The notes below the pieces were generated by a model that worked only from the letters and a program-made list of their open reading frames with translations, was not told where the DNA came from and ran no database searches. From a virus, in the UHGV virus genome UHGV-1292719: 28,171 nucleotides of DNA; one strand, written 5' to 3'. This document shows, piece by piece, positions 8,875 to 25,763 of the stretch (positions are counted from its first letter, which is position 1; every line of letters begins with the position of its first letter). Made by a program: the position numbers and the translations under genes.

Positions 8875-8885
8875 GAGCAATTTGC

Positions 8886-9071: not shown

Positions 9072-9079
9072 AGACTCGC

Positions 9080-9152
9080 CCCCGAAATTAAAGAATACTT
9101 AAATTATCCACCAAAGGAATCTTAAGTCAAGTTTATTTAAGATGTCTTAACT
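9080..9152. promoter_or_regulatory. right operator / PR-PRM region with P22-type operator half-sites
   Basis: 73-bp divergent intergenic region with TTAAG...CTTAA-type 18-bp sites, e.g. ATTTAAGATGTCTTAACT at 9135-9152. Confidence 0.55.
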
Positions 9153-9803
9153 ATGAATACACAACTGATGGGTGAGCGTATTCGCGCTCGCAGAAAAGAA
9201 CTCAAGATTAGGCAGGCTGCCCTTGGCAAGATGGTTGGCGTGTCTAATGTTGCTATTTCCCAATGGGAGCGATCTGAAACTGAGCCCAATGGCGAAAACC
9301 TATTGGCCTTAGCCAAGGCTTTGCAGTGCTCCCCTGATTACCTGTTGAAAGGAGAGGATAGTCTTTCAAACATTGCCTATCACAGCAGGCATGATCCAAG
9401 AGGTTCGTATCCTCTAATTAGTTGGGTAAGCGCAGGATGTTGGATGGAAGCTGTAGAGCCATATCATAGGCGTGCAATAGATAACTGGTACGACACAACG
9501 GTAGATTGTTCTGAAGACTCTTTTTGGCTCGACGTTAAAGGCGATTCAATGACTGCCCCGGCAGGACTGAGTATTCCTGAGGGGATGATTATTCTCGTCG
9601 ACCCAGAAGTCGAACCACGTAATGGAAAGCTGGTAGTCGCCAAACTTGAAGGAGAAAACGAGGCGACATTCAAAAAGTTAGTTATTGATGCCGGTAGAAA
9701 ATTCCTGAAACCACTCAATCCACAATACCCAATGATTGAAATCAATGGGAACTGTAAAATCATTGGCGTTGTCGTTGATGCCAAGCTAGCAAACCTTCCT
9801 TAA
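9153..9803 (+). CDS. c2: prophage repressor, P22 C2-type (HTH plus LexA-like S24 autocleavage domain)
   Basis: 216 aa, MNTQLMGERIRARRKELKIRQAALGKMVGVSNVAISQWE...; Ala-Gly cleavage-site context and GDSM serine motif. Confidence 0.9.
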   Translation: MNTQLMGERIRARRKELKIRQAALGKMVGVSNVAISQWERSETEPNGENLLALAKALQCSPDYLLKGEDSLSNIAYHSRHDPRGSYPLISWVSAGCWMEAVEPYHRRAIDNWYDTTVDCSEDSFWLDVKGDSMTAPAGLSIPEGMIILVDPEVEPRNGKLVVAKLEGENEATFKKLVIDAGRKFLKPLNPQYPMIEINGNCKIIGVVVDAKLANLP

Positions 9804-9830
9804 GGGGCTTTCGCCCCTTTTTTATTTCCC
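9804..9830 (+). terminator. rho-independent terminator after the repressor gene
   Basis: GGGGC-TTTC-GCCCC followed by TTTTTTATTT. Confidence 0.6.
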
Positions 9831-9862
9831 GTTAAAAATCAAAGACAAACTAAATTCACGCC

Positions 9863-9925
9863 CATAAAATTAAGTTTTCTTCAAAAATGCACTTGACCAA
9901 TAAATTAAGAAGTCTTAAATTTAAG
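9863..9925 (+). promoter_or_regulatory. left operator / PL-like promoter directed toward N
   Basis: Operator-like AATTAAGAAGTCTTAAATT and AATTAAGTTTTCTTCAAA; candidate TTGACC-17 nt-TAAATT. Confidence 0.4.
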
Positions 9926-9966
9926 CCATCAACAGGACGCTGGAAGCCAAACGGAACAGATTGGCA

Positions 9967-10007
9967 GGCTCTTTAACATCGACGGACTCTCAACCTAACC
10001 GTTGAGA
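9967..10007 (+). promoter_or_regulatory. nutL-like site (boxA plus boxB hairpin)
   Basis: GGCTCTTTAACA then hairpin TCTCAAC-CTAACC-GTTGAGA (7-bp stem) upstream of N. Confidence 0.5.
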
Positions 10008-10117
10008 CCAGAACTTGAGTGGTTTTGGGGATGGCGCGAATTGCAGCTGCAAGACAGCGATCGAGAAGATAAGCACCTCGACGCGTCATGCGCCAAAGCC
10101 ACTTAAAGGAGACCATC

Positions 10118-10423
10118 ATGGTAACCATTGTCTGGAAAGAATCCAAAGGTACGGCAAAAAGCCGCTACAAAGCTCGCAGAGCAGAACTTATTGCCGAGCG
10201 ACGCAGTAATGAAGCACTGGCGCGAAAAATTGCGCTAAAGCTCTCTGGTTGCGTCAGAGCAGACAAAGCAGCATCACTAGGAAGCCTTTGCTGCAAGAAG
10301 AAAGAAGAAGTCGTTCGAAAAAATAGAAGTATTTATTACAAGGATTCAAACCCATTAGGAAACAAAATACATGCAGTCCAAAAAATAAAATTGTACAGTA
10401 AACTACCGTACGGTGCTTATTGA
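10118..10423 (+). CDS. N: N-like antiterminator (arginine-rich motif protein)
   Basis: AAGGAG then ATG at 10118; N-terminal arginine-rich motif GTAKSRYKARRAELIAERR; first gene after nutL. Confidence 0.65.
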   Translation: MVTIVWKESKGTAKSRYKARRAELIAERRSNEALARKIALKLSGCVRADKAASLGSLCCKKKEEVVRKNRSIYYKDSNPLGNKIHAVQKIKLYSKLPYGAY

Positions 10424-10425
10424 GT

Positions 10426-10764
10426 ATGCTTATGGTGAAAAAGACTATTTATGTTAATCCTGACCGCGGACAAAACAGAAAAGTATCTGATAGAGGTCTT
10501 ACATCTCGAGACAGGAGGAGAATAGCGAGATGGGAAAAGAGGATAGCATATGCATTAAAAAACGGTGTAACACCTGGATTTAATGCTATAGATGACGGCC
10601 CTGAATATAAGATTAATGAAGAACCAATGGATAAAGTTGACAAAGCATTAGCAACACCATTTCCTCGCGATGTCGAAAAAATTGAAGATGGAAAATATGA
10701 GGATGTAATGCACAGAGTTGTTAATCACGCTCACCAACGAAATCCAAATAAAAAATGGTCATAG
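10426..10764 (+). CDS. hypothetical basic protein (~112 aa) immediately after N
   Basis: ORF 10420..10764; first ATG at 10426; arginine-rich segment SRDRRRIARWEKRI; no membrane segments; followed by a strong terminator. Confidence 0.5.
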   Translation: MLMVKKTIYVNPDRGQNRKVSDRGLTSRDRRRIARWEKRIAYALKNGVTPGFNAIDDGPEYKINEEPMDKVDKALATPFPRDVEKIEDGKYEDVMHRVVNHAHQRNPNKKWS

Positions 10765-10786
10765 CCCACTTCGGTGGGTTTTTTAT
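10764..10786 (+). terminator. rho-independent terminator (UUCG tetraloop hairpin plus T-run)
   Basis: CCCAC-TTCG-GTGGG followed by TTTTTTATT. Confidence 0.7.
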
Positions 10787-10903
10787 TGTCTGAACTAACC
10801 GAATTTATTACAGCAAGCCACGCAGTGAAATGGGTGTGACTTGTGTTGGTCGCCAGAAGCAACGCGGAAAATCAATTCCAGCTTATTACGATTGAGGTGA
10901 GCC

Positions 10904-11041
10904 ATGCTCAAGAAAGTCAAACGCCGACTTTACAAAGAAGGTAGATATTCATGCCAGTTGCCAAAATGCGACACAACAAAATGGAGTGTCGATGATTGGT
11001 GTAACTGGATAGATAGATACGGAACTTGGTGGGATAAATAA
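10904..11041 (+). CDS. small cysteine/tryptophan-rich hypothetical protein (45 aa)
   Basis: Hand-translated MLKKVKRRLYKEGRYSCQLPKCDTTKWSVDDWCNWIDRYGTWWDK; GAGGTGA 5 nt upstream of the ATG. Confidence 0.35.
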   Translation: MLKKVKRRLYKEGRYSCQLPKCDTTKWSVDDWCNWIDRYGTWWDK

Positions 11042-11095
11042 CAGGTAACTTAAGCGTATTTACTTTCGCAGCAAACAACTTATTTGAGGTGATAT

Positions 11096-11182
11096 ATGGA
11101 AGAAGAATTTGAAGAGTTCGAAGAGCATCCTCAGGATGTGATGGAACAATACCAGGACTATCCTTATGACTACGACTATTGA
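11096..11182 (+). CDS. acidic 28-aa peptide, lambda orf28-like by position and length
   Basis: MEEEFEEFEEHPQDVMEQYQDYPYDYDY; GAGGTGA upstream; overlaps the ral start by ~17 nt as in lambda. Confidence 0.45.
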   Translation: MEEEFEEFEEHPQDVMEQYQDYPYDYDY

Positions 11183-11366
11183 TAAAAATCAATGGTGTGG
11201 ACAATTCAAGCGATGCAATGGATGCAAGCTGCAATCGGAATGCATGGTTAAGCCTGAAGAAATGTTTCCTGTAATGGAAGATGGGAAATATGTCGATAAA
11301 TGGGCAATACGAACGACGGCAATGATTGCCAGAGAACTTGGTAAACAGAACAACAAAGCTGCCTGA
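11166..11366 (+). CDS. ral: Ral (restriction alleviation) protein
   Basis: 66 aa, MTTTIDKNQWCGQFKRCNGCKLQSECMVKPEE...; matches lambda Ral from memory. Confidence 0.8.
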   Translation: MTTTIDKNQWCGQFKRCNGCKLQSECMVKPEEMFPVMEDGKYVDKWAIRTTAMIARELGKQNNKAA

Positions 11367-11540
11367 TAGTGACCTTTATTTTTGGCACAGAATAAACACT
11401 GCACTGTGTATTCATTCCAACGAGTGAATACACGGAGCAATGTCGCTCGTAACTAAACAGGAGCCGACTTGTTCTGATTATTGGAAATCTTCTTTGCCCT
11501 CCAGTGTGAGGGCGATTTTTTTCTGTGAGGATATGAATAG

Positions 11541-11909
11541 ATGTCAAACATCAAAAAATACATCATTGATTACGACTGGAAAGCATCAATAGAAATTGAA
11601 ATCGACCATGACGTAATGACAGAGAAAAAACTTCACCAGATTAATAATTTCTGGTCAGATTCTGAATACCGACTCAATAAACACGGCTCTGTATTAAATG
11701 CTGTATTAATCATGCTGGCGCAACATGCTCTGCTTATAGCAATTTCAAGCGACTTAAATGCATATGGTGTTGTGTGTGAGTTCGACTGGAATGATGGAAA
11801 TGGTCAGGAAGGATGGCCTCCAATGGATGGTAGCGAAGGAATAAGAATTACCGATATCGATACATCAGGAATATTTGATTCAGATGATATGACTATCAAA
11901 GCCGCCTGA
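11541..11909 (+). CDS. ea10: Ea10-like early protein
   Basis: 122 aa; position between ral and cIII and sequence consistent with lambda Ea10 from memory. Confidence 0.7.
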   Translation: MSNIKKYIIDYDWKASIEIEIDHDVMTEKKLHQINNFWSDSEYRLNKHGSVLNAVLIMLAQHALLIAISSDLNAYGVVCEFDWNDGNGQEGWPPMDGSEGIRITDIDTSGIFDSDDMTIKAA

Positions 11910-11981
11910 GCGCGGCGTTACCGCATACCAATAACGCTTCACTCGAGGCGTTTTTCGTTATGTATAAATAAGGAGCACACC

Positions 11982-12146
11982 ATGCAATATGCCATTGCAG
12001 GGTGGCCTGTTGCTGGCTGCCCTTCCGAATCTTTACTTGAACGAATCACCCGTAAATTACGTGACGGATGGAAACGCCTTATCGACATACTTAATCAGCC
12101 AGGAGTCCCAAAAAATGGATCAAACACTTATGGCTATCCAGACTAA
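11982..12146 (+). CDS. cIII: CIII (FtsH inhibitor)
   Basis: Hand-translated 54 aa [54 protein letters not shown], lambda cIII-like; AAGGAG upstream. Confidence 0.8.
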   Translation: MQYAIAGWPVAGCPSESLLERITRKLRDGWKRLIDILNQPGVPKNGSNTYGYPD

Positions 12147-12258
12147 ATTCACTATCGCCACTTTTATTGGCGATGAAAAGATGTTTCGTGAGGCCGTCGA
12201 CGCTTATAAAAAATGGATATTAATACTGAAACTGAGATCAAGCAAAAGCATTCACTAA
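12115..12258 (+). CDS. kil: Kil (FtsZ inhibitor)
   Basis: 47 aa [47 protein letters not shown], at the end of ORF 11989..12258; overlaps the cIII 3' end. Confidence 0.75.
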
Positions 12259-12629
12259 CCCCCTTTCCTGTTTTCCTAATCAGCCCGGCATTTCGCGGGC
12301 GATATTTTCACAGCTATTTCAGGAGTTCAGCCATGAACGCTTATTACATTCAGGATCGTCTTGAGGCTCAGAGCTGGACGCGTCACTACCAGCAGATCGC
12401 CCGTGAAGAGAAAGAGGCAGAACTGGCAGACGACATGGAAAAAGGTCTTCCACAGCACCTGTTTGAATCACTCTGTATCGATCATTTGCAACGCTGCGGG
12501 GCCAGCAAAAAAGCCATTACCCGTGCGTTTGATGACGATGTTGAGTTTCAGGAGCGCATGGCAGAACACATCCGGTACATGGTTGAAACCATTGCTCACC
12601 ACCAGTTTGATATTGATTCAGAGGTATAA
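12213..12629 (+). CDS. gam: Gam (RecBCD inhibitor)
   Basis: 138 aa, [36 protein letters not shown]...; lambda Gam-like. Confidence 0.9.
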
Positions 12630-12634
12630 AACGG

Positions 12635-13420
12635 ATGAGTACAGCACTCGCAACGCTGGCAGGGAAGCTGGCTGAACGTGTCGGCATGGATTCTGTCGAC
12701 CCACAGGAACTGATCACCACTCTTCGCCAGACAGCATTTAAAGGCGATGCCAGCGATGCGCAGTTCATCGCATTGTTGATCGTCGCCAACCAGTACGGCC
12801 TTAATCCGTGGACGAAAGAAATTTACGCCTTCCCTGACAAGCAGAACGGCATCGTTCCGGTGGTGGGCGTTGATGGCTGGTCCCGTATCATCAATGAAAA
12901 CCAGCAGTTTGATGGCATGGACTTTGAGCAGGACAATGAATCCTGCACATGCCGGATTTACCGCAAGGACCGTAATCATCCGATCTGCGTTACCGAGTGG
13001 ATGGATGAATGCCGCCGCGAACCATTCAAAACCCGCGAAGGCAGAGAAATCACGGGGCCGTGGCAGTCGCATCCCAAACGGATGTTACGTCATAAAGCCA
13101 TGATTCAGTGTGCCCGTCTGGCCTTCGGATTTGCTGGTATCTATGACAAGGATGAAGCCGAGCGCATTGTCGAAAATACCGCATACACTGCAGAACGTCA
13201 GCCGGAACGCGACATCACTCCGGTTAACGATGAAACCATGCAGGAGATTAACACTCTGCTGATCGCCCTGGATAAAACATGGGATGACGACTTATTGCCG
13301 CTCTGTTCCCAGATATTTCGCCGCGACATTCGCGCATCGTCAGAACTGACACAGGCCGAAGCAGTGAAAGCTCTTGGATTCCTGAAACAGAAAGCCACTG
13401 AGCAGAAGGTGGCAGCATGA
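12635..13420 (+). CDS. bet: Bet (Red-beta single-strand annealing protein)
   Basis: 261 aa, [38 protein letters not shown]...; lambda Bet-like. Confidence 0.9.
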
Positions 13421-14097
13421 CACCGGACATTATCCTGCAGCGTACCGGGATCGACGTGAGAGCTGTCGAACAGGGGGATGATGCATGGCACAAATTACGG
13501 CTCGGCGTCATCACCGCTTCAGAAGTTCACAACGTGATAGCAAAGCCCCGCTCAGGAAAGAAGTGGCCTGACATGAAAATGTCCTACTTCCACACCCTGC
13601 TGGCTGAGGTTTGCACCGGTGTGGCTCCGGAAGTTAATGCTAAGGCGCTGGCCTGGGGAAAACAGTACGAGAACGACGCCAGAACCCTGTTTGAATTCAC
13701 TTCCGGCGTGAATGTTACTGAATCCCCGATCATCTATCGCGACGAAAGTATGCGCACCGCCTGCTCTCCCGATGGTTTATGCAGTGACGGCAACGGCCTT
13801 GAACTGAAATGCCCGTTTACCTCCCGGGATTTCATGAAGTTCCGGCTCGGTGGTTTCGAGGCCATAAAATCGGCTTACATGGCCCAGGTGCAGTACAGCA
13901 TGTGGGTGACGCGAAAAGATGCCTGGTACTTTGCCAACTATGACCCGCGTATGAAGCGTGAAGGCCTGCATTATGTCGTGATTGAGCGGAATGAAAAGTA
14001 CATGGCGAATTTTGACGAGATGGTGCCGGAGTTCATCGAAAAAATGGACGTGGCACTGGCTGAAATTGGTTTTGTATTTGGGGAGCAATGGCGATGA
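13417..14097 (+). CDS. exo: Exo (lambda exonuclease)
   Basis: 226 aa, [40 protein letters not shown]...; lambda Exo-like; overlaps the bet stop. Confidence 0.9.
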
Positions 14098-14255
14098 AGC
14101 ATCCTCACGATAATATCCGGGTAGGCGCGATCACTTTCATCTACTCCGTTACAAAGCGAGGCTGGGTATTTCCCGGCCTTTCTGTTATCAGAAATCCACT
14201 GAAAGCACAGCGGCTGGCTGAGGCGATAAATAATAAACGGGGGCTGTATGACTGA
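14094..14255 (+). CDS. small exo-xis region protein (53 aa)
   Basis: ATG overlaps the exo stop; [53 protein letters not shown]; 3' end overlaps the methyltransferase start. Confidence 0.4.
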
Positions 14256-14805
14256 TTTCACCGGAAGCAATACTCCTGCCGAACATCGCGACAGCTGGCG
14301 CACACCACCAGAGATTTTTGCTGCGCTTAATGCAGAGTTCGTTTTTCAACTTGATGCTGCCGCCAGCGAAAAAAACCGACTATGTCGGCTTTTTATCTCA
14401 CAGGAGCAGAACACATTAACCACTTCATGGCCTGAAGCAATGGGATATGCCTCTGGTTATGTCTGGTTGAATCCACCATACAGCAATATTTCCCCTTTTG
14501 TGAAAAAGGCAGCCACTGAAAACAAATTCAGTAGTGTGGGATGTGTAATGTTATTGCCTGCTGACACATCTGTCGGATGGTTTCATGAAGCGATACAAAC
14601 CGCCAGTGAGGTCAGATTCATCACGGCAGGACGACTGGCATTTATTAACCCACTCACTGAGAAACCCGTCAGTGGAAATAATAAAGGCTCGATGCTCATT
14701 ATCTGGCACCCATACCCCCGTACACACTGCCACTTTACGACCGTTGATCGTGGAGAGTTGATGGCGTTCGGCTCAAGGATTCTTGCCCGTCGGGAGGCTG
14801 CATGA
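14248..14805 (+). CDS. orphan DNA N6-adenine methyltransferase (phage Dam-like)
   Basis: 185 aa with the NPPY catalytic motif (YVWLNPPYSN); no adjacent restriction endonuclease gene. Confidence 0.8.
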   Translation: MTDFTGSNTPAEHRDSWRTPPEIFAALNAEFVFQLDAAASEKNRLCRLFISQEQNTLTTSWPEAMGYASGYVWLNPPYSNISPFVKKAATENKFSSVGCVMLLPADTSVGWFHEAIQTASEVRFITAGRLAFINPLTEKPVSGNNKGSMLIIWHPYPRTHCHFTTVDRGELMAFGSRILARREAA

Positions 14806-14885
14806 CAACCACGGAATGCATTTTTCTGGCAGCGGGCTTCATATTCTGTGTGCTTATGCTTGCCGACATGGGACTTGTTCAATGA
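14802..14885 (+). CDS. small hydrophobic peptide (27 aa), translationally coupled
   Basis: MTTTECIFLAAGFIFCVLMLADMGLVQ; ATGA overlaps at both ends. Confidence 0.3.
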   Translation: MTTTECIFLAAGFIFCVLMLADMGLVQ

Positions 14886-15097
14886 CACCTCAGCAGGAAA
14901 ACGCCCTTCGCAGCATTGCCCGTCAGGCTAATTCTGAAATCAAAAAAGCCAGACAGCAGTTTCCGGATAAAAACGTCGATGACATTTGCCGTAGCGTACT
15001 TAAGAAGCACCGCGAAACGGTAACGCTGATGGGATTCACACCGACTCATTTAAGCCTGGCGATCGGCATGTTAAACGGCGTCTTTAAGGAACGGTGA
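14882..15097 (+). CDS. hypothetical protein (71 aa)
   Basis: In-frame ATG inside ORF 14783..15097 that overlaps the upstream stop: MTPQQENALRSIARQANSEIKKARQQFPDKNVDD... Confidence 0.45.
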   Translation: MTPQQENALRSIARQANSEIKKARQQFPDKNVDDICRSVLKKHRETVTLMGFTPTHLSLAIGMLNGVFKER

Positions 15098-15195
15098 ACA
15101 TGAAAAGCAAAATCATCAGGGAGCTACAGGCTCCTTTTTTATTGTTCGCATTCATCCTCAAGCGTATTAACCAACAATTCAGGGATTAATGGAAG

Positions 15196-15414
15196 ATGGC
15201 AGACATCATTGATTCAGCATCAGAAATCGAAGAATTACAGCGCAATACAGCAATAAAAATGCGTCGTCAGAACTACCAGACTGTATCCGCAACTCATTGT
15301 TGTGAGTGTGGCGATCCGATAGATGAGCGAAGACGCCTGGCTGTTCAGGGTTGTCGGACTTGTGCAAGTTGCCAGGAGGAGATCGAACTTAAGAACAAAC
15401 AATGGGGACTGTGA
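15196..15414 (+). CDS. DksA/TraR-family C4 zinc-finger protein
   Basis: 72 aa with CCECG...CRTCASC (CxxC-17-CxxC). Confidence 0.7.
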   Translation: MADIIDSASEIEELQRNTAIKMRRQNYQTVSATHCCECGDPIDERRRLAVQGCRTCASCQEEIELKNKQWGL

Positions 15415-15461
15415 TGGCCTCAAAGCAGCAAATTTCAACATCGTCCAACTGAGGTGTAAAA

Positions 15462-15740
15462 ATGTTCAGAATCATTTTTCCTAACACCTGGTACGTCGAC
15501 CACCACGGCACTCCCTGCAAAATCCTGCGTTCTACCCACAACAAAGTTCACTACATCCGAAAAGGCAGAACATGTATCGCCAGCATGTTCCGCTTTAATC
15601 ATGACTTTGAACCTGTGAATAAAGCTGATGCAGATCGGATAGCAGAAGAGATCGAAACGGCAGAACACATTAAGAAGTTACGTGACATGCGTTCAAAAAG
15701 CAGAGGTAACCATGGAATCATACAGCCTCACACTCGATGA
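15462..15740 (+). CDS. hypothetical prophage protein (92 aa)
   Basis: ORF directly upstream of xis; no recognised motif. Confidence 0.5.
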   Translation: MFRIIFPNTWYVDHHGTPCKILRSTHNKVHYIRKGRTCIASMFRFNHDFEPVNKADADRIAEEIETAEHIKKLRDMRSKSRGNHGIIQPHTR

Positions 15741-16062
15741 GGCCTGTCAGTTTCTTAAGATATCCAGACCAACCGCCACCAACTGGATACGAACAGGCCG
15801 CCTACAGGCAACACGTAAAGATCCAACCAAGCCAAAATCTCCTTACCTCACAACACGGCAAGCCTGCATTGCGGCGCTTCAGTCTCCGCTGCATACTGTC
15901 CAGGTGAGCGCGGGTGATGGCATAACAGAGGAAAGAAAATGTCACTCTTCCGCAGAAGTGAAATATGGTACGCCAGTTTCACATTGCCGAACGGTAAAAG
16001 ATTTAAACAGTCTCTTGGAACAAAGGACAAAAGGCAGGCGACAGAGCTCCATGACAAGCTAA
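15712..16062 (+). CDS. xis: excisionase, P22 Xis-like
   Basis: From [37 protein letters not shown]... (HTH-like), ~116 aa; overlaps the int 5' end. Confidence 0.6.
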
Positions 16063-17102
16063 AGGCTGAAGCATGGCGGGTCAGCAAACTTGGTGAAATA
16101 CCTGATATAACGTTCGAGGAAGCGTGTGTCAGGTGGCTTGAAGAGAAAGCACATAAAAAATCACTGGACGATGACAAAAGCCGGATCGGATTCTGGCTTC
16201 AACATTTCGCAGGAATGCAACTAAGAAACATTACTGAATCAAAAATTTATTCAGCAATGCAGAAAATGACGAACCGGCGTCATGAGGAAAACTGGAAACT
16301 CAGGGCAGAAGCATGCAGAAAAAAAGGGAAACCTGTTCCAGAATACACGCCAAAACCAGCGTCCGTTGCAACGAAGGCGACGCATCTTTCATTTATAAAG
16401 GCCCTGCTAAGAGCCGCAGAGCGTGAATGGAAAATGCTCGATAAGGCACCAATTATTAAAGTGCCTCAACCAAAGAATAAACGGATCCGCTGGCTGGAGC
16501 CCCATGAAGCACAAAGGCTGATTGATGAATGTCCGGAGCCATTAAAGTCTGTTGTTGAATTTGCACTGGCAACAGGCTTAAGACGCTCGAACATCATCAA
16601 CCTTGAATGGCAACAAATAGATATGCAGCGCCGGGTGGCATGGATAAACCCGGAAGAGAGTAAATCAAACCGCGCAATTGGCGTTGCGCTGAATGATACT
16701 GCATGTCGCGTATTGAAAAAACAAATCGGGAATCATCACCGTTGGGTATTTGTGTACAAGGAAAGCTGTACCAAACCAGACGGAACGAAAGCGCCAACAG
16801 TAAGGAAGATGCGGTATGACGCAAACACAGCCTGGAAAGCGGCGCTGAGACGGGCTGGTATTGATGATTTCAGATTTCACGACTTGAGACACACCTGGGC
16901 AAGTTGGCTGGTTCAAGCCGGAGTCCCGTTGTCAGTGTTACAGGAAATGGGAGGCTGGGAGTCTATCGAAATGGTTCGTCGATATGCTCACCTTGCACCT
17001 AATCACCTTACCGAACACGCACGGCAAATAGACTCGATCCTGAACCCATCCGTCCCAAATTTGTCCCAGTCAAAAAATAAGGAAGGTACTAATGATGTGT
17101 AA
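15939..17102 (+). CDS. int: tyrosine integrase, P22 / thrW-targeting family
   Basis: 387 aa; C-terminal catalytic motifs [10 protein letters not shown] and MVRRYAHL (R-H-R-Y tyrosine recombinase signature); ends 14 bp before the att core. Confidence 0.9.
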
Positions 17103-17116
17103 CTTATTGATTTAAA

Positions 17117-17162
17117 TGGTGCCGATAATAGGAGTCGAACCTACGACCTTCGCATTACGAAT
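17117..17162 (-). other. attachment-site core: 46-bp copy of the 3' end of tRNA-Thr (thrW-type), not a complete tRNA
   Basis: Minus strand reads ATTCGTAATGCGAAGGTCGTAGGTTCGACTCCTATTATCGGCACCA (anticodon-stem 3' half, T-arm, acceptor 3' strand, CCA); sequence 5' of it (CTTATA...) does not continue the tRNA. Confidence 0.75.
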
Positions 17163-17608
17163 TATAAGAATCCGCTTCTAATTCAAAGCATTACCCCATC
17201 AACACTGCGCTCACACGTCCCACCACATCAAAACATGTAAAGCCTTGCAAGCCATTGTGAGGCCTTTTGTGTCTCAGTTTTGTCCCATCCGCGCTTGTGT
17301 TTTCTTTCATACATACACAATAATATAAATTAAAATAATAAACTATGAAACTAATGTGTCTTTCATCAACAACATGGTAACAATGCTTATTATAACATTG
17401 TGTAATTATCATTTTTTCCGAGCATTGTGTGAAATTCATACCGATTTGTTGCAAAAAAAAATTACAAGTAAAATGTTTTTAAAATGTAATTTTGGAGGAA
17501 AAGACAAGTCTACTAACCACCTGTTAATACAATTAATCATGAATATATTTCTTTAGCCCCGAGATATTAATTAATTAGTTGTTCATCGCTTTATATACTG
17601 GTTTCATT

Positions 17609-19810
17609 ATGCTTAATAAAAAAACAATTGCTGTGTTAATAGCTTCTACAATTCCAACAACAGCTTTAGCCGCATCATTTACTCAAAATATTGCAAAAGG
17701 AACAGAAGTCAGCAATGAGGTTATTGATGGTAAGCAGTCCGTTTATGGTAATATTACAAATAGTATGATTACTACTGGCGGGCATCAATACATTTACTCT
17801 GGAGGAGCAGCTTCTGATATTATTCTTAATGGTGGTAAAAGCACTGTAAATAACGCCGACATCAAAAATTTCAAAATAATAAACGGAATTCAGGCCTTAA
17901 ATACTGGTGCTATATCTTATTCCGCAGAAATAACTGGAACGGGTATCCAGCGTGTAAATGATGGTGCTAAATCAGCTTATAGCACATTAGCCAATGGTGG
18001 TCGACAGTATATAAATTCTGGTGGAAAGTCAGAAAACACCACTATTGAAAGTGGTGGGAGTCTTTATACTTACGCTAACGGTGAGTCCCTCAACACTACT
18101 GTCAATGATGGGGCGTTCTTTGTTAGAGGGGGGACTGCAACTAATAGCGTTATTAATGGTGGTAAACAAGTAGTAACCGAAGGAGGGATCACTACTGGTG
18201 ACATTATCAATGACGGTGGTTATCAAAATATTGGTGTAAATGGTTCTGCCTTTAATGTTGTAGTTAATAAAGGCGGCCGTCAAGATATTAATACTGGCGG
18301 CTATGCAAAAGATACAACCATCATTGGTGGACAATATGATATAGATCCAGAGGCAACTGGTGAAAATGTAAGTTTTGACGGTGGTTTAGGTTTTGTTCGT
18401 GAAACTGGAATTTTAACTGGCTATGCCACTCTAAAAAACGGTGCTGAAATTTATATGGCTGAGGGTTCTGATGCAGATATTTCACTATCTAGTCAGAGCA
18501 AGCTTTATGTTGTTAATGATATTACAAATAGCAACATGACACTGGATAACTCATCTGTTTATTTCCGTTCTTCTTTTGATGGTGAATTATCAACAAATTT
18601 AAAAGAATTTAAAACTCTGAACGTCAATAAACTAAACGCCAATAACTCCTCGTTCTTTATGAAAGTTGAAGGTATGAATGGCGATTTTCTTAATATTTCC
18701 GAGTTTTCTGGCGATAACAACACAGTTAGCATTAATGGTAGCGGTAAAGAAAGCAGTGATGGATATCATCTGATTCACGCTGGTAATAGTAGTGTTGATG
18801 CTTTTAAATTAGACGGTGGCAAAGTTGAACTTGGCTCATATGTCTATACATTAGAAAAAAATAATGATGACTGGTATTTAAGACAGCATGCTGATCAACT
18901 TTCATCCTCAGCAAAAACTGTTCTTTCAATGGCATCTTATGCATCTTCAATATTTACAAATGAATTTCATACTATCTCTGATAGATTGAATAATAGTTTG
19001 ACCGATATTGAAGGGAATCATCTTTGGGGAAGATTTATCAGCTCTGATTATCGTGTTAATAATGGTGTGAATGAACCATATAAACTTACACAAAATGGTT
19101 TTGAGTATGGATTAGGCAAAACCATTTCAAAAGAACATGGCGATTTTAGTTTTGGTATCTCCGCTGGTATTACCCAAAACAAAATAAAAGAAAAATCTGG
19201 GACTCGTTCTGATGTTGACAGTTACTCAGTTGGTTTATACGGTTCCTATATCCACAAAAACGGATTCTACATTGATGGATTAATCAAAGGAAACCGATTT
19301 GATAACACTACGGAGATTATCATTGATTCGTCCGACATTGCTACTGCTAATTTTAAACAAACTGGCTTTGGTTCTGCATTAGAATTTGGCAAATATACTT
19401 GGTTTGATAATTCATTTGTTACTCCATATGTACGAACAGAATACTTCATGGCCAACAATGAAGAAGTTAAGATTAGCAATGGAATGAAGGCTGATTTGGG
19501 CAATGACAGATCATTGAAAGGAGAAGCCGGGGTTAAATTAGGGACAAACTTAAATGTTTGGCAAAACACTAATATTACTCCATACTTAAAAGTATCACTT
19601 GAACACGAATTCATTGATGACAACTATATTAAGATCAATGACAGTGTAAAAATTAACAATGATAACTCGGGAACCATCGGGAATTATAGTTTAGGCCTTG
19701 ATGCTAAGATGGGCAAAAATGCATCTTTTTATTCTGAGCTTGGTTACTCTAAAGGTTCAAACATCGAGGTTCCATTCAACGTAAAAGCTGGTGTTCGAGT
19801 CCTCTTTTAA
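17609..19810 (+). CDS. autotransporter (type Va) adhesin-like protein: signal peptide, repetitive beta-helical passenger, C-terminal beta-barrel
   Basis: ORF 17579..19810 trimmed to MLNKKTIAVLIASTIPTTALAA; repeated ~19-aa GG-x-Q-x-I-x-GG-x-A-x-T-I motifs; C-terminus ends ...NVKAGVRVLF; AT-rich codon usage. Confidence 0.85.
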   Translation: MLNKKTIAVLIASTIPTTALAASFTQNIAKGTEVSNEVIDGKQSVYGNITNSMITTGGHQYIYSGGAASDIILNGGKSTVNNADIKNFKIINGIQALNTGAISYSAEITGTGIQRVNDGAKSAYSTLANGGRQYINSGGKSENTTIESGGSLYTYANGESLNTTVNDGAFFVRGGTATNSVINGGKQVVTEGGITTGDIINDGGYQNIGVNGSAFNVVVNKGGRQDINTGGYAKDTTIIGGQYDIDPEATGENVSFDGGLGFVRETGILTGYATLKNGAEIYMAEGSDADISLSSQSKLYVVNDITNSNMTLDNSSVYFRSSFDGELSTNLKEFKTLNVNKLNANNSSFFMKVEGMNGDFLNISEFSGDNNTVSINGSGKESSDGYHLIHAGNSSVDAFKLDGGKVELGSYVYTLEKNNDDWYLRQHADQLSSSAKTVLSMASYASSIFTNEFHTISDRLNNSLTDIEGNHLWGRFISSDYRVNNGVNEPYKLTQNGFEYGLGKTISKEHGDFSFGISAGITQNKIKEKSGTRSDVDSYSVGLYGSYIHKNGFYIDGLIKGNRFDNTTEIIIDSSDIATANFKQTGFGSALEFGKYTWFDNSFVTPYVRTEYFMANNEEVKISNGMKADLGNDRSLKGEAGVKLGTNLNVWQNTNITPYLKVSLEHEFIDDNYIKINDSVKINNDNSGTIGNYSLGLDAKMGKNASFYSELGYSKGSNIEVPFNVKAGVRVLF

Positions 19811-19940: not shown

Positions 19941-20429
19941 TCAAATCAAGCATCGCACTCTGAAGCAAGTAGCCATCTGCCTGCTTCCTTTGATCTGCGA
20001 GAAGTTTGTGGCAGTGATCACCAATCCCCCCTGTGCGCGAGCAGCTTTCAGTCCAGCTTTTGTTCGTTCAACAATCAGTTCACGCTCCATTTCAGCCAGA
20101 GCACCCATCACATGAAAGAAAAAGCGTCCCATTGAGGTACTGGTATCAATTGAATCCGTCAGACTACGAAAGTTGATGCCTCGTTCGCGCAACTCCTCCA
20201 CCAGCACGACAAGATGCCGCATACTGCGCCCCAGCCGATCCAGCTTCCAGACAACCAGAGTGTCACCTTCCGATAATGTCCTGAGCAGTTTTTTCAATCC
20301 CGGCCTTTCGGACTTTGTACCGCTTATCTTGTCTTCAAAAATCAGCTCGCATCCTGCACAGTTCAGCGCATTACGTTGTAGATCTGTGTTCTGGTCATTT
20401 GTTGACACACGTACATAGCCAATAAGCAT
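19941..20429 (-). pseudogene. pin: Din-family serine invertase (Pin/Gin/Hin-like), catalytic domain intact, C-terminal HTH domain lost
   Basis: MLIGYVRVSTNDQNTDLQRNALNCAGCELIFEDKISG...VERTKAGL is a typical resolvase/invertase catalytic domain; after ARAQG the frame diverges at a C6/G6 homopolymer (20036-20041) and ends in unrelated sequence at the junction with the AT-rich islet. Confidence 0.7.
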
Positions 20430-20455
20430 GGTAGATCTCCCTGACAAAAGCAGGG

Positions 20456-21007
20456 ATGATGCCATTTGCTCGTTATTTCTACATTTTCATAAACGTTGGT
20501 TTGGGAGAAGGCTCTGCATTACCTGTTGGGGTGCCTGTTCCGTGGCCTTCAGCCACTCCGCCAACAGGCTGGCTGAAATGCAACGGAGCAGCTTTTTCTG
20601 CTGAAGAATACCCGGAGCTGGCAAAGGCTTACCCGACAAATAAATTGCCTGATTTACGTGGTGAGTTTATTCGTGGCTGGGATGACGGACGTGGTATGGA
20701 TACGGGGAGGGCAATATTATCCGCTCAGGGCGATGCCATACGTAATATCTATGGTGAGTTCAAGACTGTAAACACCGAAAATTATTCAATATGGGAATCA
20801 GTAGGCTCTTTTAAGGGGGCAGTGGTGCCTTTGAACCCCTCAACGAACAATAGTTATTTCTCCTTAATCAGAAGTATGGTGACAGAAAGAACAGATGGCG
20901 CTGTTTACCCAAAAGTGATTGGCCTTGATGCTTCAAGAATTGTTCCAACTGCAAACGAAAACCGTCCTCGTAACATTGCCTTTAATTATATCGTGAGGGC
21001 TGCCTGA
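20456..21007 (+). CDS. alternative tail-fibre C-terminal segment (Sv'-type) inside the invertible segment; silent in this orientation
   Basis: ORF has no credible own start; from the crossover site it encodes ...NVGLGEGSALPVG..., and the expressed fibre on the other strand encodes ...[11 protein letters not shown] at the matching site. Confidence 0.6.
   Translation: MMPFARYFYIFINVGLGEGSALPVGVPVPWPSATPPTGWLKCNGAAFSAEEYPELAKAYPTNKLPDLRGEFIRGWDDGRGMDTGRAILSAQGDAIRNIYGEFKTVNTENYSIWESVGSFKGAVVPLNPSTNNSYFSLIRSMVTERTDGAVYPKVIGLDASRIVPTANENRPRNIAFNYIVRAA
20484..20509. repeat. left recombination site (hix/gix-like) of the invertible segment
   Basis: Core AAACG-TT-GGTTT; 15-bp perfect inverted repeat TTGGTTTGGGAGAAG shared with 22368-22382. 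Confidence 0.55.
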
Positions 21008-21609
21008 TGAATAAAGCCGTATTAAATAACGAACTCATTGCCATAAAAGCGGGAGTCATTACCATTTATAATTATGATGGTGAAACGCGGGAGTATATTT
21101 CCACATCAACTGAATATCTTGCGGTTGGCGTCGGTATCCCGGCATGTTCTTGTTTAGATGCACCAGTTACACATAAAGCTGGTTATGCAATCTGCCGTTC
21201 TGCAGATTTTAACTCATGGGAATATGTGCCAGACCATCGCGGTGAAATCATCTATAGCACCGAAACAGGAGAATCGAAAGAAATCACAGCTCCGGGTGAT
21301 TATCCTGAAAATACAACCACTATCGCCCCGTTAACGCCATACGATAAATGGGATGGTGAGAAATGGGTGACGGATACCGAGGCACAGCATAGCGCCGCAG
21401 TAGAAGCGGCAGAAGCACAGCGCCAGTCGCTGATTGATGCTGCAATGGCTTCCATCAGTCTGATTCAGCTGAAATTACAGGCCGGGCGGAAGCTGACGCA
21501 GCCAGAAAACACCCGACTTAACGCTGTGCTGGATTATATTGACGCGGTGACGGCAACAGATACCAGCACAGCGCCAGACGTCATCTGGCCTGAACTGCCG
21601 GAGGCGTAG
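21007..21609 (+). CDS. tfa: tail fibre assembly protein (chaperone) paired with the silent fibre segment
   Basis: 200 aa; conserved C-terminal chaperone region ...DYIDAVTATDTSTAPDVIWPELP. Confidence 0.8.
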   Translation: MNKAVLNNELIAIKAGVITIYNYDGETREYISTSTEYLAVGVGIPACSCLDAPVTHKAGYAICRSADFNSWEYVPDHRGEIIYSTETGESKEITAPGDYPENTTTIAPLTPYDKWDGEKWVTDTEAQHSAAVEAAEAQRQSLIDAAMASISLIQLKLQAGRKLTQPENTRLNAVLDYIDAVTATDTSTAPDVIWPELPEA

Positions 21610-22021
21610 GCCATTCAATATCTGGCGCACCGGAAGTATCGACCAGTTCCAGTGCGTCCAGATAATCCAGCCACAAATTATATTGCGCCAGTTCCCCACC
21701 TTTCAGGCGACCAATCGCCGCTTTACCAGGCCATTGCTTACTGTTTATGTATTCGTTGACCTGATTAATCAATTGCTGCTTTTCCAATTCGGCTGCGGCA
21801 ATTTGTTCCTCATGAGTTGGCGGTGGAATATCAATCCATGCAGGCATTCCGTCGATGACACCTCTGTATTTTCCTTCTGGTGCTTCCTTCATAAATTCGG
21901 CGGCAACAGTGTCGTCAATTTCGATTCCATCACCGGGCCATTCGCCGGATTCCTGATAAGCGATTTTAAGCTCCACAGGGAAAAACGCATTTTTATCGGC
22001 ACTGAAAATATATTTCTGCAT
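21581..22021 (-). CDS. tfa: tail fibre assembly protein (chaperone) for the expressed fibre
   Basis: 146 aa; C-terminus ...LWLDYLDALELVDTSGAPDIEWPTPP parallels the plus-strand copy. Confidence 0.8.
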   Translation of the reverse strand: MQKYIFSADKNAFFPVELKIAYQESGEWPGDGIEIDDTVAAEFMKEAPEGKYRGVIDGMPAWIDIPPPTHEEQIAAAELEKQQLINQVNEYINSKQWPGKAAIGRLKGGELAQYNLWLDYLDALELVDTSGAPDIEWPTPPAVQAR

Positions 22022-22023
22022 TT

Positions 22024-22737
22024 CTACCGTCCTATCGAAATATAACTGAATCTGTATTGCTGTGAGATATCACTGGTTGCCACACGCCACGCTGAATTAC
22101 TGATATGTTCAAAATTTACAGACAAAACCTGCGGGGCAGGATTCGACGGGTCTGACTGAACGGCATCAGACATAACACTGACTGAAACCATCGGCTGATT
22201 AGGGAATGGTATAGGGAAGTGTCCACTGATAAAGCGGGTCGTGTTTCCTGAAAAAGTGCCAAACTGAACAATATATCCACCTGGTAGCCTGAACCATCCC
22301 GAACCAGAAGCGAATGCTCCCATATCCGGTATCTGATTATCTCCTGTGCCCACATCCCTTTTCGCCGCTTCTCCCAAACCAAGGTTTTCGAGAGCCGTTT
22401 TCACCGTGCCATCCGATTTGATATCGCCAAACGGATTCTTGCGGCTCAGGTATTCAACAGCAAACCCCGATCCCAGCAATTCAACAAAACCGGGCAGATC
22501 ACCATTATCAAGCACATCCCGTTGCGTTTTGTCACTTACAAACTGGGCCAGAGCTGCAGCAATAAAGCTGGCCTGCCGAATAACCTTATTGACTTGCGCA
22601 CTGGATGCTTTCCCTGCTGTAAATCCGGATAAAAGCGCAGGCAACGCTTCCCATTCCTCCTGCGACATAACATTGGCATTCCGATCAGTTGCAAACGCTT
22701 TAAAGTCATTTTTCGCCATCAGAGTAATACTCCCCAT
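22024..22737 (-). CDS. tail fibre protein (constant N-terminal part fused to the currently expressed variable C-terminal part)
   Basis: 237 aa; N-terminal [27 protein letters not shown]...[23 protein letters not shown] is typical of Mu S / e14 Stf-type fibres; crossover site lies inside the gene. Confidence 0.75.
22369..22394. repeat. right recombination site (hix/gix-like) of the invertible segment, inside the tail-fibre gene
   Basis: Palindromic core AAACC-AA-GGTTT (plus strand 22376-22387); inverted copy of the left site. Confidence 0.55.
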
Positions 22738-23399
22738 GCCCCTACATCAAAACCACTGATGAATTCGTTATCCATATCAAAACCAAAAAATTTTGAACCT
22801 TCCGATGGAGTTTCCACCGAAGGTGTTTCAATGCCACCCGCCCAAACCCCGGCGGCTTTTACTGTGAGATATCCCTGTTTAATTGCAGCAATTAACTCAC
22901 GCGATACATCTGAAATATCAGTATCAGGAAAGAGCCAGACCGATATCGTCATGTCCTGGTTATCGACTATCTGCATTCGCAGTCCGGATCCTGCTGTCGC
23001 CGCGTCAAGAATTGCTGGAAGCGAATCATTCCGTCCGTCCCAGTTATTAATCGCAATCTTCGCTTTAAGGATGACACGATAAGTTTCATCGCTGAGGTAC
23101 ATGTATCCGGAATCAGGATCGTATGGCCCCTGCCATACACCCTGATCATATCCAAGCCCGTCGGTATCCCAGCTGAAATACACACCTGAGATAGGCTGGC
23201 TGACAACACGGCTACGTCCGATCCACAATCCCAGAATGTCAAGTTGCACACCAACCGCAGAGTCAATATCAAATGCAGTAATCAGCCCTCTGGTGGCAGC
23301 CGCAACATCAATAAGTGGCCGGGTCATCAGATCAACATGCGCAAGAAATTTAGGTTTGGTGGCGTGGTAGTTCGTGATTAGTTCGGTGTATTTGCTCAT
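22719..23399 (-). CDS. phage tail protein (Mu gp48 / e14 YmfQ-like)
   Basis: 226 aa between the baseplate J-like gene and the tail fibre, overlapping both; order matches Mu-type baseplate clusters. Confidence 0.6.
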
Positions 23400-24595
23400 G
23401 ACTCCACCGTTATAACGATATTTTCCGGGGTACAGGACGCAGATTCGTTGTATCTGATATCAATGTTTGATGACGACAAAGCCCCCGGGGATTTCCCAAT
23501 CGTCAGTTCCTGAATATCGTAATAGCGTGCATTCCCGCCACTCACCACGCCAAGATTCGCCGGTGAGTAAATGCGACTTAAAAGGACCGAATCACCAATC
23601 GTCAGACTATTGATATAGTCGGAAATAGCCTGCTGGATCTGCTGCCCTATCTGTGAGGTATAACCCGTAAAAACTTTTAATTTAATCAGGGCATAAACAG
23701 GCACATCACTGGAACGCGAGAATTTGATTACATGGGGATTGCCGTATTTATCCGGAACCGTAACGGATGTTGTACCGTGAGTGGCTGTCCCCTGGCCTTT
23801 ATTCCCTCTGATAGCCTGAGCAATATCCGTTACATCACCGCCATCCACAATTACAGCAACAGAGTGTGGCGGTAACCCGTTACCGTCCTCCGAACCAGTA
23901 TCGTTTTCATAGAGTTTGTGGCGGGTTACACCGGTAACATTAGAAACAGCACCATCCAGTGCTTCAAATGGGGTTATTGATGGCAACGCAACACTTTGCG
24001 ACTGGCGGATACGTAACTCAGCGTCAGTTTCTGCCGGAGTGCCCACAGTAGCCGCAGCAGGATTAGTTACCGAAACCCAGCCACGGGTTGGCGTATTAAT
24101 TTCAGTGATAGTTCCAGCCAGCGCCGCCACTGCACCACTGACGGAACATGTTGCGGTCACCATCACTGTACCATCCACTCCGACCACCACTGAAGCAGGC
24201 AAACGCCATATCACATTATTACTGTCTTTCACGCTGCCATTAATGATGGTTGTTCCGGCAGTTCCTGTAAGAAGCAAATCAACCGTAGAATTCGTCGCGC
24301 CTCTACGTGAAATACCATTTATTTTCACGTTACTGGTCAGTGAGGCCCCATAGCCGGTTGCTGGTGAAAAACAGTTGTAGACAGTTATCGCCATATTATT
24401 GGCATCATGAATTGCCAGCGCCATCAGAGCCACCATCTGACCGTCTTTACTGTCCGGTTCGAGGTAGGCATCACTACCATAAATCTGCTGAAAATAGCTA
24501 ATCAGGGTGCTGAGTATCGTCTGATAATCAGGCGCACTGATCCCCTCCGCGGTTACCTTTGCAGATAAACCGAGAGAATCAAGGTTCAGAGCCAT
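23396..24595 (-). CDS. baseplate J-like protein (Mu gp47 family)
   Basis: 399 aa; size and position (W-like, J-like, I-like, fibre) typical of Mu/P2-type baseplate modules. Confidence 0.75.
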   Translation of the reverse strand: MALNLDSLGLSAKVTAEGISAPDYQTILSTLISYFQQIYGSDAYLEPDSKDGQMVALMALAIHDANNMAITVYNCFSPATGYGASLTSNVKINGISRRGATNSTVDLLLTGTAGTTIINGSVKDSNNVIWRLPASVVVGVDGTVMVTATCSVSGAVAALAGTITEINTPTRGWVSVTNPAAATVGTPAETDAELRIRQSQSVALPSITPFEALDGAVSNVTGVTRHKLYENDTGSEDGNGLPPHSVAVIVDGGDVTDIAQAIRGNKGQGTATHGTTSVTVPDKYGNPHVIKFSRSSDVPVYALIKLKVFTGYTSQIGQQIQQAISDYINSLTIGDSVLLSRIYSPANLGVVSGGNARYYDIQELTIGKSPGALSSSNIDIRYNESASCTPENIVITVES

Positions 24596-24948
24596 TACGC
24601 CTCCGATGTAACAGTCGTTATTCCATAAAGAGTGTCGATTTCAGCGGAAAACATGACACGTCGGGTCGTGGTATCCACCGTCGTATTGAAAGAGAGGATT
24701 GATTTAACGCCCCGCGTTTCAAGGATGCGCTTACGGATCGCCAGGTTGTAGGTTTCCGGCTTCTGCTTACCGAGTACGGACTGGATCCACGGAATCCCCT
24801 CGGTGGTGTCGAGAAACCATTGCCCATACCACAATTCGAATCGCGTTTTTACCGCCTGCGCCACGGCCTCCGGTGAGTTAATCAGCCAGGTGTCATCACC
24901 GCTGCCAAAGGTGTAATCGCCATCGGCGTCTTCACGTCTGTATCGCAT
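24595..24948 (-). CDS. small baseplate protein (W / gp25-like, tentative)
   Basis: 117 aa directly upstream of and overlapping the J-like gene. Confidence 0.5.
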   Translation of the reverse strand: MRYRREDADGDYTFGSGDDTWLINSPEAVAQAVKTRFELWYGQWFLDTTEGIPWIQSVLGKQKPETYNLAIRKRILETRGVKSILSFNTTVDTTTRRVMFSAEIDTLYGITTVTSEA

Positions 24949-25721: not shown

Positions 25722-25746
25722 AAAACCCGCCGGGTGGCGGGTTTTA
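25720..25746 (-). terminator. rho-independent terminator (bidirectional hairpin) after the two-gene cargo operon
   Basis: AAAAAA-CCCGCC-GGGT-GGCGGG-TTTT; A-run and T-run flank a 6-bp GC stem. Confidence 0.7.
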
Positions 25747-25763
25747 TTAATTACTTAATAGGC

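What the first reader, a model, noticed from the sequence alone, without database searches (positions are those of the whole stretch)
17103..17200. Integrase-adjacent att core is a partial tRNA-Thr copy flanked by foreign DNA: tandem or composite element array
Seen in sequence: the 46 nt after int are the 3' end of a tRNA-Thr on the minus strand, but the 5' flank is unrelated AT-rich DNA, so no intact tRNA is formed here. Established knowledge: after integration into a tRNA gene, the phage side flanking the 3' end of the core lies next to the reconstituted intact tRNA. Inference: since int flanks the 3' side of a core that lacks the tRNA 5' half, the DNA to the right (autotransporter islet and Mu-like tail remnant) probably belongs to a different element sharing the same att site in tandem, or the locus has been rearranged.
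Basis: partly seen in the sequence, partly recalled or inferred. Interest (0 to 1): 0.5.

Follow-up and report, generated by a model that had tools for sequence, protein, structure and literature searches.

The report
Ordinary phage attachment site (attP)
The 46-base tRNA-Thr fragment after the integrase gene is the well-known attachment-site core of P22/SfV-type phages, here with its own phage DNA on both sides, so it is ordinary and not a scar between two foreign elements.

Summary
Window 17117-17162 (minus strand) is 46/46 identical to the 3' part of E. coli thrW, tRNA-Thr(CGU), and no tRNA is formed there.

This is not the tRNA-proximal end of a simple lysogen. But the DNA to the right is not foreign.
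- The next 127 nt (17163-17289) are the conserved P arm, which follows the same core in the genomes of phages SfI, SfII, SfIV, SfV and P22/L. SfI annotates these 46 nt as "attP core".
- The autotransporter, the truncated pin gene, the tail-fibre genes and the baseplate genes belong to the same phage type as the int side.
- E. coli SM107 and LR-46 carry that phage as a single thrW prophage, with the window's two halves at its opposite ends.
- Joining LR-46's two ends in silico reproduces the window's junction as one 7.8-kb alignment.

So the site is a complete, cognate attP (P arm, core, P' arm with int). It comes either from phage-form DNA or from the internal junction of a tandem lysogen of one phage type. 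The window cannot decide between these. Both situations are already documented, so novelty and interest are low.

The parts
15682..16062 (+). xis (excisionase-like, overlaps the start of int)
   Evidence: The ORF matches Pfam HTH_17. An excisionase is annotated at the same position, overlapping int, in SfI, SfIV and phage L.
15939..17102 (+). int, a 387-aa P22/SfV-type tyrosine integrase transcribed towards the att site
   Evidence: 98-99% nucleotide identity to int of SfIV, SfI, SfV and SfII, and about 79% to P22/L. The exact protein carries PF00589.
17040..17116 (.). P' arm (3' end of int plus a 14-nt spacer), with two invariant GTCCCA motifs at 17052-17057 and 17063-17068
   Evidence: The direct repeats are reported. 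The motifs are invariant among the window, SfI, phage L and Cronobacter phage ENT47670 while their surroundings diverge. Their role as arm-type Int-binding sites is inferred.
17117..17162 (-). att common core, the 3' 46 nt of thrW tRNA-Thr(CGU)
   Evidence: The same 46 nt are annotated as 'attP core' in phage SfI and as 'tRNA-like fragment / P22 attP site' in phage L. A 46-bp attP is described in PMC3851460.
17163..17289 (.). P arm, with GTCCCA motifs at 17217-17222 and 17282-17287 and a terminator-like hairpin at 17242-17263
   Evidence: Homology to SfIV, SfI, SfV, SfII and P22 runs across the core up to 17289. Conserved blocks are shown and the terminator-like site. The same arm sits at the attR side of the SM107, LR-46, LR-50 and PSS-11 prophages.
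17290..19810 (+). Cargo (moron) slot: AT-rich upstream region plus a 733-aa autotransporter gene (17609-19810)
   Evidence: Pfam Pertactin and Autotransporter domains. GC is 21-31% upstream of the gene. The slot occupies the position of gtrABC in SfI and phage L. The same islet sits at the attR end of the thrW prophages in LR-46 and LR-50.
19941..20465 (-). pin/fin-type serine invertase gene that has lost its C-terminal end
   Evidence: Only the Resolvase N-terminal domain is present. The gene is annotated as incomplete in LR-46 and LR-50 and is intact in SM107.
20456..28171 (-). Tail-fibre (invertible-segment type) and baseplate genes of the same phage type; the stretch runs off the window
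   Evidence: Pfam DUF2612 and a spike-protein domain. The region is collinear with the attR-proximal part of the single prophages in SM107 and LR-46 at 96-97%.
30..15681 (.). The rest of the int-side phage: start of TerL, terS, lysis genes, tRNA-Thr(TGT)/tRNA-Asn, Q, nin, P, O, cII, cro, cI, cIII, gam-bet-exo
   Evidence: Collinear with the thrW-proximal part of the SM107 prophage. 99.93% identical to L022 over 12.2 kb.

Best explanation
The 46-nt element is the common core of a complete P22/SfV-family attP site. The order is xis, int, a 14-nt spacer, the core (a copy of the 3' part of thrW), a 127-nt P arm, a cargo gene and the tail genes. Both flanks belong to one temperate phage type, with lambdoid early genes and an E217-like myovirus structural module.

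How it works is inferred from the lambda/P22 paradigm. Int, with IHF, binds arm-type sites in both arms and core-type sites inside the 46 bp, and exchanges strands with thrW. Because the phage carries the tRNA's 3' 46 nt, integration rebuilds an intact thrW next to int (attL). The displaced 46 nt are left next to the P arm and cargo gene at the far end (attR, beside yagP').

The window shows the unrecombined state, P arm, core, P' arm. That state exists in circular or concatemeric phage DNA and at the internal junction of a tandem lysogen of the same phage. My rough split is about 0.5 for phage-form DNA and 0.35 for a tandem-copy junction. The window cannot settle this.
For: - The core is identical to thrW and unique in the window.
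- Homology to free phage genomes runs uninterrupted from int across the core to 17289.
- SfI annotates these 46 nt as attP core, 14 nt after int and followed by cargo and then a tail-fibre gene. Phage L annotates a tRNA-like fragment and the P22 attP site at the same place.
- Four GTCCCA motifs, the core and a P-arm hairpin stay invariant across phages that are only about 80% identical.
- The window is a circular permutation of single prophages. Window 30-17162 matches SM107's terS-to-thrW end and 17099-28169 matches its attR-to-baseplate end. LR-46 carries int next to thrW at one end and the autotransporter next to the core at the other.
- A simulated excision of the LR-46 prophage aligns to the window as one HSP, 12880-20695, at 97.4%.
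- Published work: a 46-bp attP shared by SfI, SfV and SfIV, and integration into thrW (PMC3851460).
Against: - The source molecule is unknown.
- terS carries a private 1-nt deletion, and TerL is cut at about codon 56 by 29 unmatched nt. If these lesions are real, the int-side phage is defective, which fits a resident prophage better than virion DNA.
- No deposited phage genome carries the autotransporter islet.
- Composite arrays of unlike elements do occur at this core in finished genomes: PSS-11 and EC21Z-144.
- The arm-type and IHF sites are inferred from conservation and were not matched to experimentally mapped sites.
Confidence: 0.85

Rival explanations
1. The core is the boundary between two different integrated elements that share the thrW att site: an int-bearing lambdoid prophage on the left, and an unrelated autotransporter islet with a tail remnant on the right.
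For: The geometry rules out a simple attL. Unlike elements do abut this core in finished genomes. In PSS-11 a P22-like prophage meets an SfV-like prophage. In EC21Z-144 an int remnant with an AbiE/RT islet meets a lambda-like prophage. SfI and SfX were shown to integrate in tandem (PMC3306764). The lesions in terS and TerL suggest a decaying resident element.
Against: Both sides belong to the same phage type and together form a gap-free circular permutation of the single prophages in SM107 and LR-46. The terS and TerL start at the left end and the baseplate genes at the right end are parts of one structural module in those prophages. There is no second core, no bacterial gene and no duplicated phage function in the 28 kb.
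Confidence: 0.08
2. Assembly chimera. A single integrated prophage whose attL and attR were wrongly joined across the 46-63-bp repeat, giving an apparent attP.
For: The shared identity of about 63 bp (17100-17162) is a repeat in any lysogen. Three k=31 Logan contigs with the identical int all stop inside the core. The window's first 29 nt look like a contig-tip artefact.
Against: Assemblers normally break at such an X-shaped repeat and do not join the two ends. That is what the Logan contigs show. A wrong join would also need the bacterial flanks to be absent from both ends of a 28-kb contig.
Confidence: 0.05
3. A degraded attL. An originally intact thrW next to int whose 5' half was later replaced by an insertion or deletion.
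For: Int lies on the side where the intact tRNA is expected.
Against: The break falls exactly at the core boundary. The sequence that follows is the conserved phage P arm, at 97-100% identity to attR and attP arms.
Confidence: 0.01

Closest known systems
attP of the Shigella flexneri serotype-converting phages SfI, SfII, SfIV and SfV
   Same: The integrase is 98-99% identical at the DNA level. The 46-nt core is identical, 14 nt after the int stop. The P arm of about 127 nt is the same. The layout is the same: xis, int, attP, cargo, tail-fibre genes (PMC3851460).
   Different: The cargo next to attP is an autotransporter gene and not gtrA-gtrB-gtr(type). The structural module is E217-like (DUF2612, baseplate J, DUF3383 sheath in relatives) and not the Mu-like tail with HK97-like head of SfV.
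P22 / phage L attP (thrW target, 'tRNA-like fragment')
   Same: The core, the arm motifs and the gene order int, attP, cargo are the same. The curated annotation in phage L marks the tRNA-like fragment and the P22 attP site at the homologous place.
   Different: The int region is only about 79% identical at the DNA level. P22 and L are podoviruses carrying gtrABC.
Single thrW prophages of E. coli SM107 and LR-46
   Same: They are the same phage type, with the window's two halves at the attL and attR ends. LR-46 also carries the autotransporter islet and the truncated pin gene.
   Different: They are integrated, as thrW-int ... cargo-P arm-core-yagP'. The window has the two ends joined. SM107 carries FRG, AAA-ATPase and HNH genes in the cargo slot.
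Tandem lysogens at thrW (SfI+SfX in S. flexneri; the E. coli ET201 double lysogen)
   Same: Their internal junction reads int, core, P arm, exactly as in the window.
   Different: In those cases the bacterial flanks and both prophage copies are seen. Such junctions are present in only 3 of 5,426 finished E. coli genomes. For the window, the flanks are unavailable.

Membership tests
P22/SfV-family attP site (thrW-targeting lambdoid integration module) | A common core identical to the 3' 46 nt of thrW | tested here: met
   46/46 identity to the tRNA-Thr(CGT) of SM107 and to the annotated attP core of SfI.
P22/SfV-family attP site (thrW-targeting lambdoid integration module) | An adjacent P22-type tyrosine integrase with an overlapping xis, transcribed towards the core | tested here: met
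   The int is 387 aa, carries PF00589 and is 98-99% identical in DNA to SfIV and SfI int. The xis ORF has an HTH_17 domain and overlaps the start of int.
P22/SfV-family attP site (thrW-targeting lambdoid integration module) | Both phage arms (P and P') contiguous with the core, as in free phage genomes | tested here: met
   Homology to phage genomes is unbroken from 15900 to 17289 (alignments).
P22/SfV-family attP site (thrW-targeting lambdoid integration module) | Arm-type Int sites and IHF sites in the arms | tested here: inconclusive
   Four invariant GTCCCA motifs, two per arm, and a conserved hairpin were found by footprinting. They could not be compared with the experimentally mapped P22 sites, because the papers found did not give them.
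P22/SfV-family attP site (thrW-targeting lambdoid integration module) | Int-dependent recombination with thrW | not testable with these tools
   Indirect support only: near-identical modules are found integrated at thrW in SM107 and LR-46.
attL of a simple thrW lysogen | The core continues into the 5' half of thrW, followed by proA | tested here: not met
   The window diverges from thrW at 17163. No tRNA is called and no proA is present.
Tandem or composite prophage array at thrW | Further core copies, a second integration module, or bacterial flanks that bound two elements | tested here: inconclusive
   There is no second core copy and no bacterial gene within the 28 kb. One phage length is about 42 kb, so the neighbouring att sites would lie outside the window. 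The source contig could not be found.

The most novel reading that the evidence does not exclude
The window is the internal junction of a natural tandem lysogen at thrW. A decaying copy (terS frameshift, truncated TerL) sits next to an autotransporter-carrying copy of the same phage type. It would have arisen by secondary integration into a prophage att site or by unequal attL x attR exchange. This is rare in finished genomes (3 of 5,426 E. coli).
Probability: 0.35. Interest if true: 0.2.

Novelty: already known. Interest (0 to 1): 0.1.

Why it matters
It matters little beyond correct annotation. The 46-nt tRNA fragment should be labelled the attP core of a P22/SfV-type integration module, not a degraded tRNA or a scar between foreign islands.

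The practical lesson is that an int-adjacent partial tRNA with the cognate P arm signals phage-form DNA or a tandem lysogen.

A side point may be useful. The slot next to attP carries interchangeable cargo in related thrW phages: an autotransporter, gtr genes, or defence-like genes. This may help people who catalogue lysogenic-conversion and defence genes.

Tried and rejected
1. I first read the right side as the end of an SfV-like, Mu-tailed prophage, from LR-50 and PSS-11, which favoured two different elements. I dropped this when one search showed the window's baseplate genes are of the SM107/LR-46 type, and searches showed a single-phage circular permutation.

2. I tried to find the source contig and failed.
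- Exact junction patterns gave nothing in viral, genome or metagenome collections.
- The exact int protein is found only on short Logan contigs that stop in the core.
- The exact autotransporter and peptidase proteins are found only in other genomes.
- The exact 243-aa protein (26186-26917) is not on record.
So free phage and tandem lysogen could not be told apart.

3. I tried to identify the first 29 nt of the window (IS end or host gene). There was no hit in the loci fetched up to that point, in E. coli genomes even at E<=10, or in viral, genome or metagenome collections.

4. I asked whether the terS 1-nt deletion is inherited. None of 201 genomes with this segment shares it, so it cannot be told from a sequencing error.

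5. A literature search for the mapped P22 arm-type sites found nothing usable.

6. I considered that the tRNA-Thr at 4311-4386 might be the intact partner of the core. I rejected this. Its anticodon is TGT, it sits between Q and holin as in related prophages, and it does not match the core.

Full report
**What is at the coordinates**

The integrase ORF (15939-17102, + strand, 387 aa) ends with TAA at 17100-17102. Fourteen bases later, at 17117-17162, lies TGGTGCCGATAATAGGAGTCGAACCTACGACCTTCGCATTACGAAT. Read on the minus strand, this is the stretch of a tRNA-Thr(CGU) from the anticodon loop to the CCA end.
- It occurs once in the window, and no match is expected by chance even with three mismatches.
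- In E. coli SM107 the same integrase is followed by an intact tRNA-Thr with anticodon CGT (thrW) and then proA. The window is identical to that tRNA over exactly these 46 nt and departs from it at 17163.
- ARAGORN and Rfam at gathering threshold find no tRNA there. A relaxed Rfam scan gives 14 bits against a threshold of 29.

One detail is not. The immediate flank (17163-17289) has 43-51% GC; the AT-rich DNA (21-31% GC) begins only at about 17300.

**What the flanks are**

Against deposited phage genomes, the region 15900-17289 matches SfIV, SfI, SfV and SfII at 98-99% and P22-type phages at about 79%. Each match is one uninterrupted piece that runs through int, the core and 127 nt beyond it.
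- The SfI record annotates precisely these 46 nt as "attP core", 14 nt after int, followed by gtrA-gtrB-gtrI and a tail-fibre gene (alignment).
- The phage L record annotates a "tRNA-like fragment" and the "P22 attP site" at the homologous position.
- The SfIV paper describes a 46-bp attP identical in SfI and SfV, and integration into thrW (PMC3851460).

I aligned the window with SfI, phage L and Cronobacter phage ENT47670. Against diverged surroundings, several blocks stay invariant:
- the core plus TTATAAGAA;
- two GTCCCA motifs in the int-proximal arm (17052, 17063);
- two GTCCCA motifs in the distal arm (17217, 17282);
- a hairpin at 17242-17263 that also scores as terminator-like.

I take the four motifs as candidate arm-type Int sites. 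This is an inference; I could not retrieve the mapped P22 sites.

**The decisive turn: the right-hand genes**

Against finished E. coli genomes, the sequence from 17099 rightwards (core, P arm, autotransporter) is common. It sits beside paoD-yagP', at the far end of thrW prophages.

At first this looked like a second element, because in LR-50 and PSS-11 the prophage has a Mu-like tail, and in PSS-11 a P22-like prophage abuts the core. But the window's own baseplate genes are of another type: DUF2612, baseplate J and a membrane-puncturing spike protein. Their best matches are LR-46 and SM107.

SM107's thrW prophage is one phage, with this order: yagP', core, P arm, cargo, pin, tail fibres, baseplate, tail, head, TerL, terS, lysis genes, tRNA-Thr(TGT)/tRNA-Asn, Q, nin, P, O, cII, cro, cI, bet/exo, xis, int, thrW, proA.
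- Window 30-17162 is collinear with its terS-to-thrW part.
- Window 17099-28169 is collinear with its attR-to-baseplate part.

LR-46 has the same phage type, with the autotransporter islet and the truncated pin gene at the attR end and int next to intact thrW at the other end. I joined LR-46's two ends at the core in silico, as Int-mediated excision would. The product aligns to the window as a single 7.8-kb HSP (12880-20695, 97.4%) straight across the junction.

The window is therefore a circular permutation of one phage of about 42 kb. The right-hand DNA is that phage's own P arm, cargo slot and tail genes.

**Mechanism (inferred from the lambda/P22 paradigm)**

Int, with IHF, assembles on the arm sites and exchanges strands inside the 46-bp identity with thrW. 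Because the phage supplies the tRNA's 3' part, integration regenerates thrW next to int. The displaced 46 nt end up next to the P arm and cargo at the other end. SM107 and LR-46 show exactly this arrangement. The window shows the substrate, or excision-product, state.

**Which molecule carried this attP**

The window cannot settle this. Two situations give int, core, P arm: circular or concatemeric phage DNA, and the internal junction of a tandem lysogen.

Tandem integration at thrW is documented for SfI and SfX (PMC3306764). Among 5,426 finished E. coli genomes, only three have the whole int, core, P arm stretch in one place; I examined two of them.
- ET201 is a double lysogen of one SfV-like phage, with the same portal protein on both sides.
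- EC21Z-144 is a true composite: an int remnant with an AbiE/RT islet, joined to a lambda-like prophage.

Evidence leaning towards a resident, decaying copy:
- terS has a 1-nt deletion, not in a homopolymer. It is the only gap in 12.2 kb against a 99.93% identical relative, and it is private to the window (0 of 201 genomes).
- TerL is cut at about codon 56 by 29 nt that match nothing.
- No deposited phage carries the autotransporter islet.

Evidence leaning the other way:
- The 29 nt form a perfect 10-bp hairpin at the very first base. That looks like a contig-tip artefact.
- The window holds no bacterial gene.
- A single indel may be a sequencing error.

My split is about 0.5 for phage-form DNA, 0.35 for a same-type tandem junction, 0.08 for two unlike elements, 0.05 for an assembly chimera and 0.01 for a degraded attL.

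**Comparison and verdict**

The site meets the testable defining features of the P22/SfV-family attP: the core, the integrase with xis, and both arms. It fails the test for a simple attL.

Everything here is already described in the literature and in database annotation. Interest is low.

Noticed in passing
window 1-29: GTCTCAAGTGAACCCACTTGAGACACTGT is a perfect 10-bp stem with a 4-nt loop at the very start of the window. It matches no related prophage, no finished E. coli genome (even at E<=10), and no viral, genome or metagenome contig. It truncates TerL at about codon 56 with a stop codon. It is probably a contig-tip artefact, or otherwise an unknown breakpoint.
   Followed up: partly
window ~435 (terS, 201-751, minus strand): A single-base deletion (CATTCCT-ATAGCG against CATTCCTGATAGCG) splits the 183-aa small terminase into 105-aa and 83-aa ORFs. 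It is the only gap in 12.2 kb against a 99.93% identical relative, and none of 201 E. coli genomes with this segment shares it.
   Followed up: partly
window 17290-19900, and the homologous slot in L019, L029, L018, L032, L033 and L015: The slot between the P arm and the pin/tail-fibre genes holds different cargo in related thrW phages. It holds an autotransporter here and in LR-46 and LR-50, gtrABC in SfI and phage L, FRG plus AAA-ATPase plus HNH in SM107, DUF262 in ET201, and a restriction-modification system plus a diguanylate cyclase in EC21Z-144. A type I R-M system with AbiE lies on the other, int-side flank of the core in L015. The att site is thus flanked by a cargo and defence hotspot.
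   Followed up: partly
window 19941-20465 (minus strand) and 20456-22021: The pin/fin-type invertase keeps its resolvase catalytic domain but has lost its C-terminal DNA-binding end where the autotransporter islet begins. The neighbouring invertible tail-fibre segment is therefore probably frozen in one orientation. LR-46 and LR-50 have the same truncation; the gene is intact in SM107.
   Followed up: partly
window 25764-26917 (minus strand): A two-gene cassette sits inside the baseplate operon: a 140-aa protein with no Pfam hit and a 243-aa protein with a weak TPR hit. SM107 has ORFs of similar size at the same place, but they are too diverged for megablast. The exact 243-aa protein is not on record in the protein collection.
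   Followed up: no
window 4311-4466 (minus strand): Phage-borne tRNA-Thr(TGT) and tRNA-Asn(GTT) lie between the Q antiterminator and the holin gene, as in the SM107 prophage. They are unrelated to the att core.
   Followed up: yes
window 1454-2194 (minus strand): A trypsin-like (Trypsin_2) 246-aa protein is encoded between the lysis genes and terS. The exact protein is listed in 606 blocks of the collection, in the same position in the eight related E. coli prophages shown.
   Followed up: no
L001 ~19893-20015 versus L002 ~19960-20003: In LR-50 the short stretch between the yagP' fragment and the distal core resembles the 3' end of the integrase that abuts the core in PSS-11 (alignment A1). 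This suggests a relic of an older integrase at the E. coli thrW-distal site.
   Followed up: no
L004, L005, L006 (Logan contigs): The three Logan contigs shown that encode the identical integrase all stop at window position 17144 or 17145. That is 30 nt past the polymorphic base 17114, as expected for a k=31 assembly graph when a sample holds two core copies with different left flanks, that is, an integrated prophage.
   Followed up: partly
window 11969-12027 (+): Rfam finds the lambda cIII thermoregulator element (88.5 bits). This fits the lambdoid early region of the int-side phage.
   Followed up: no
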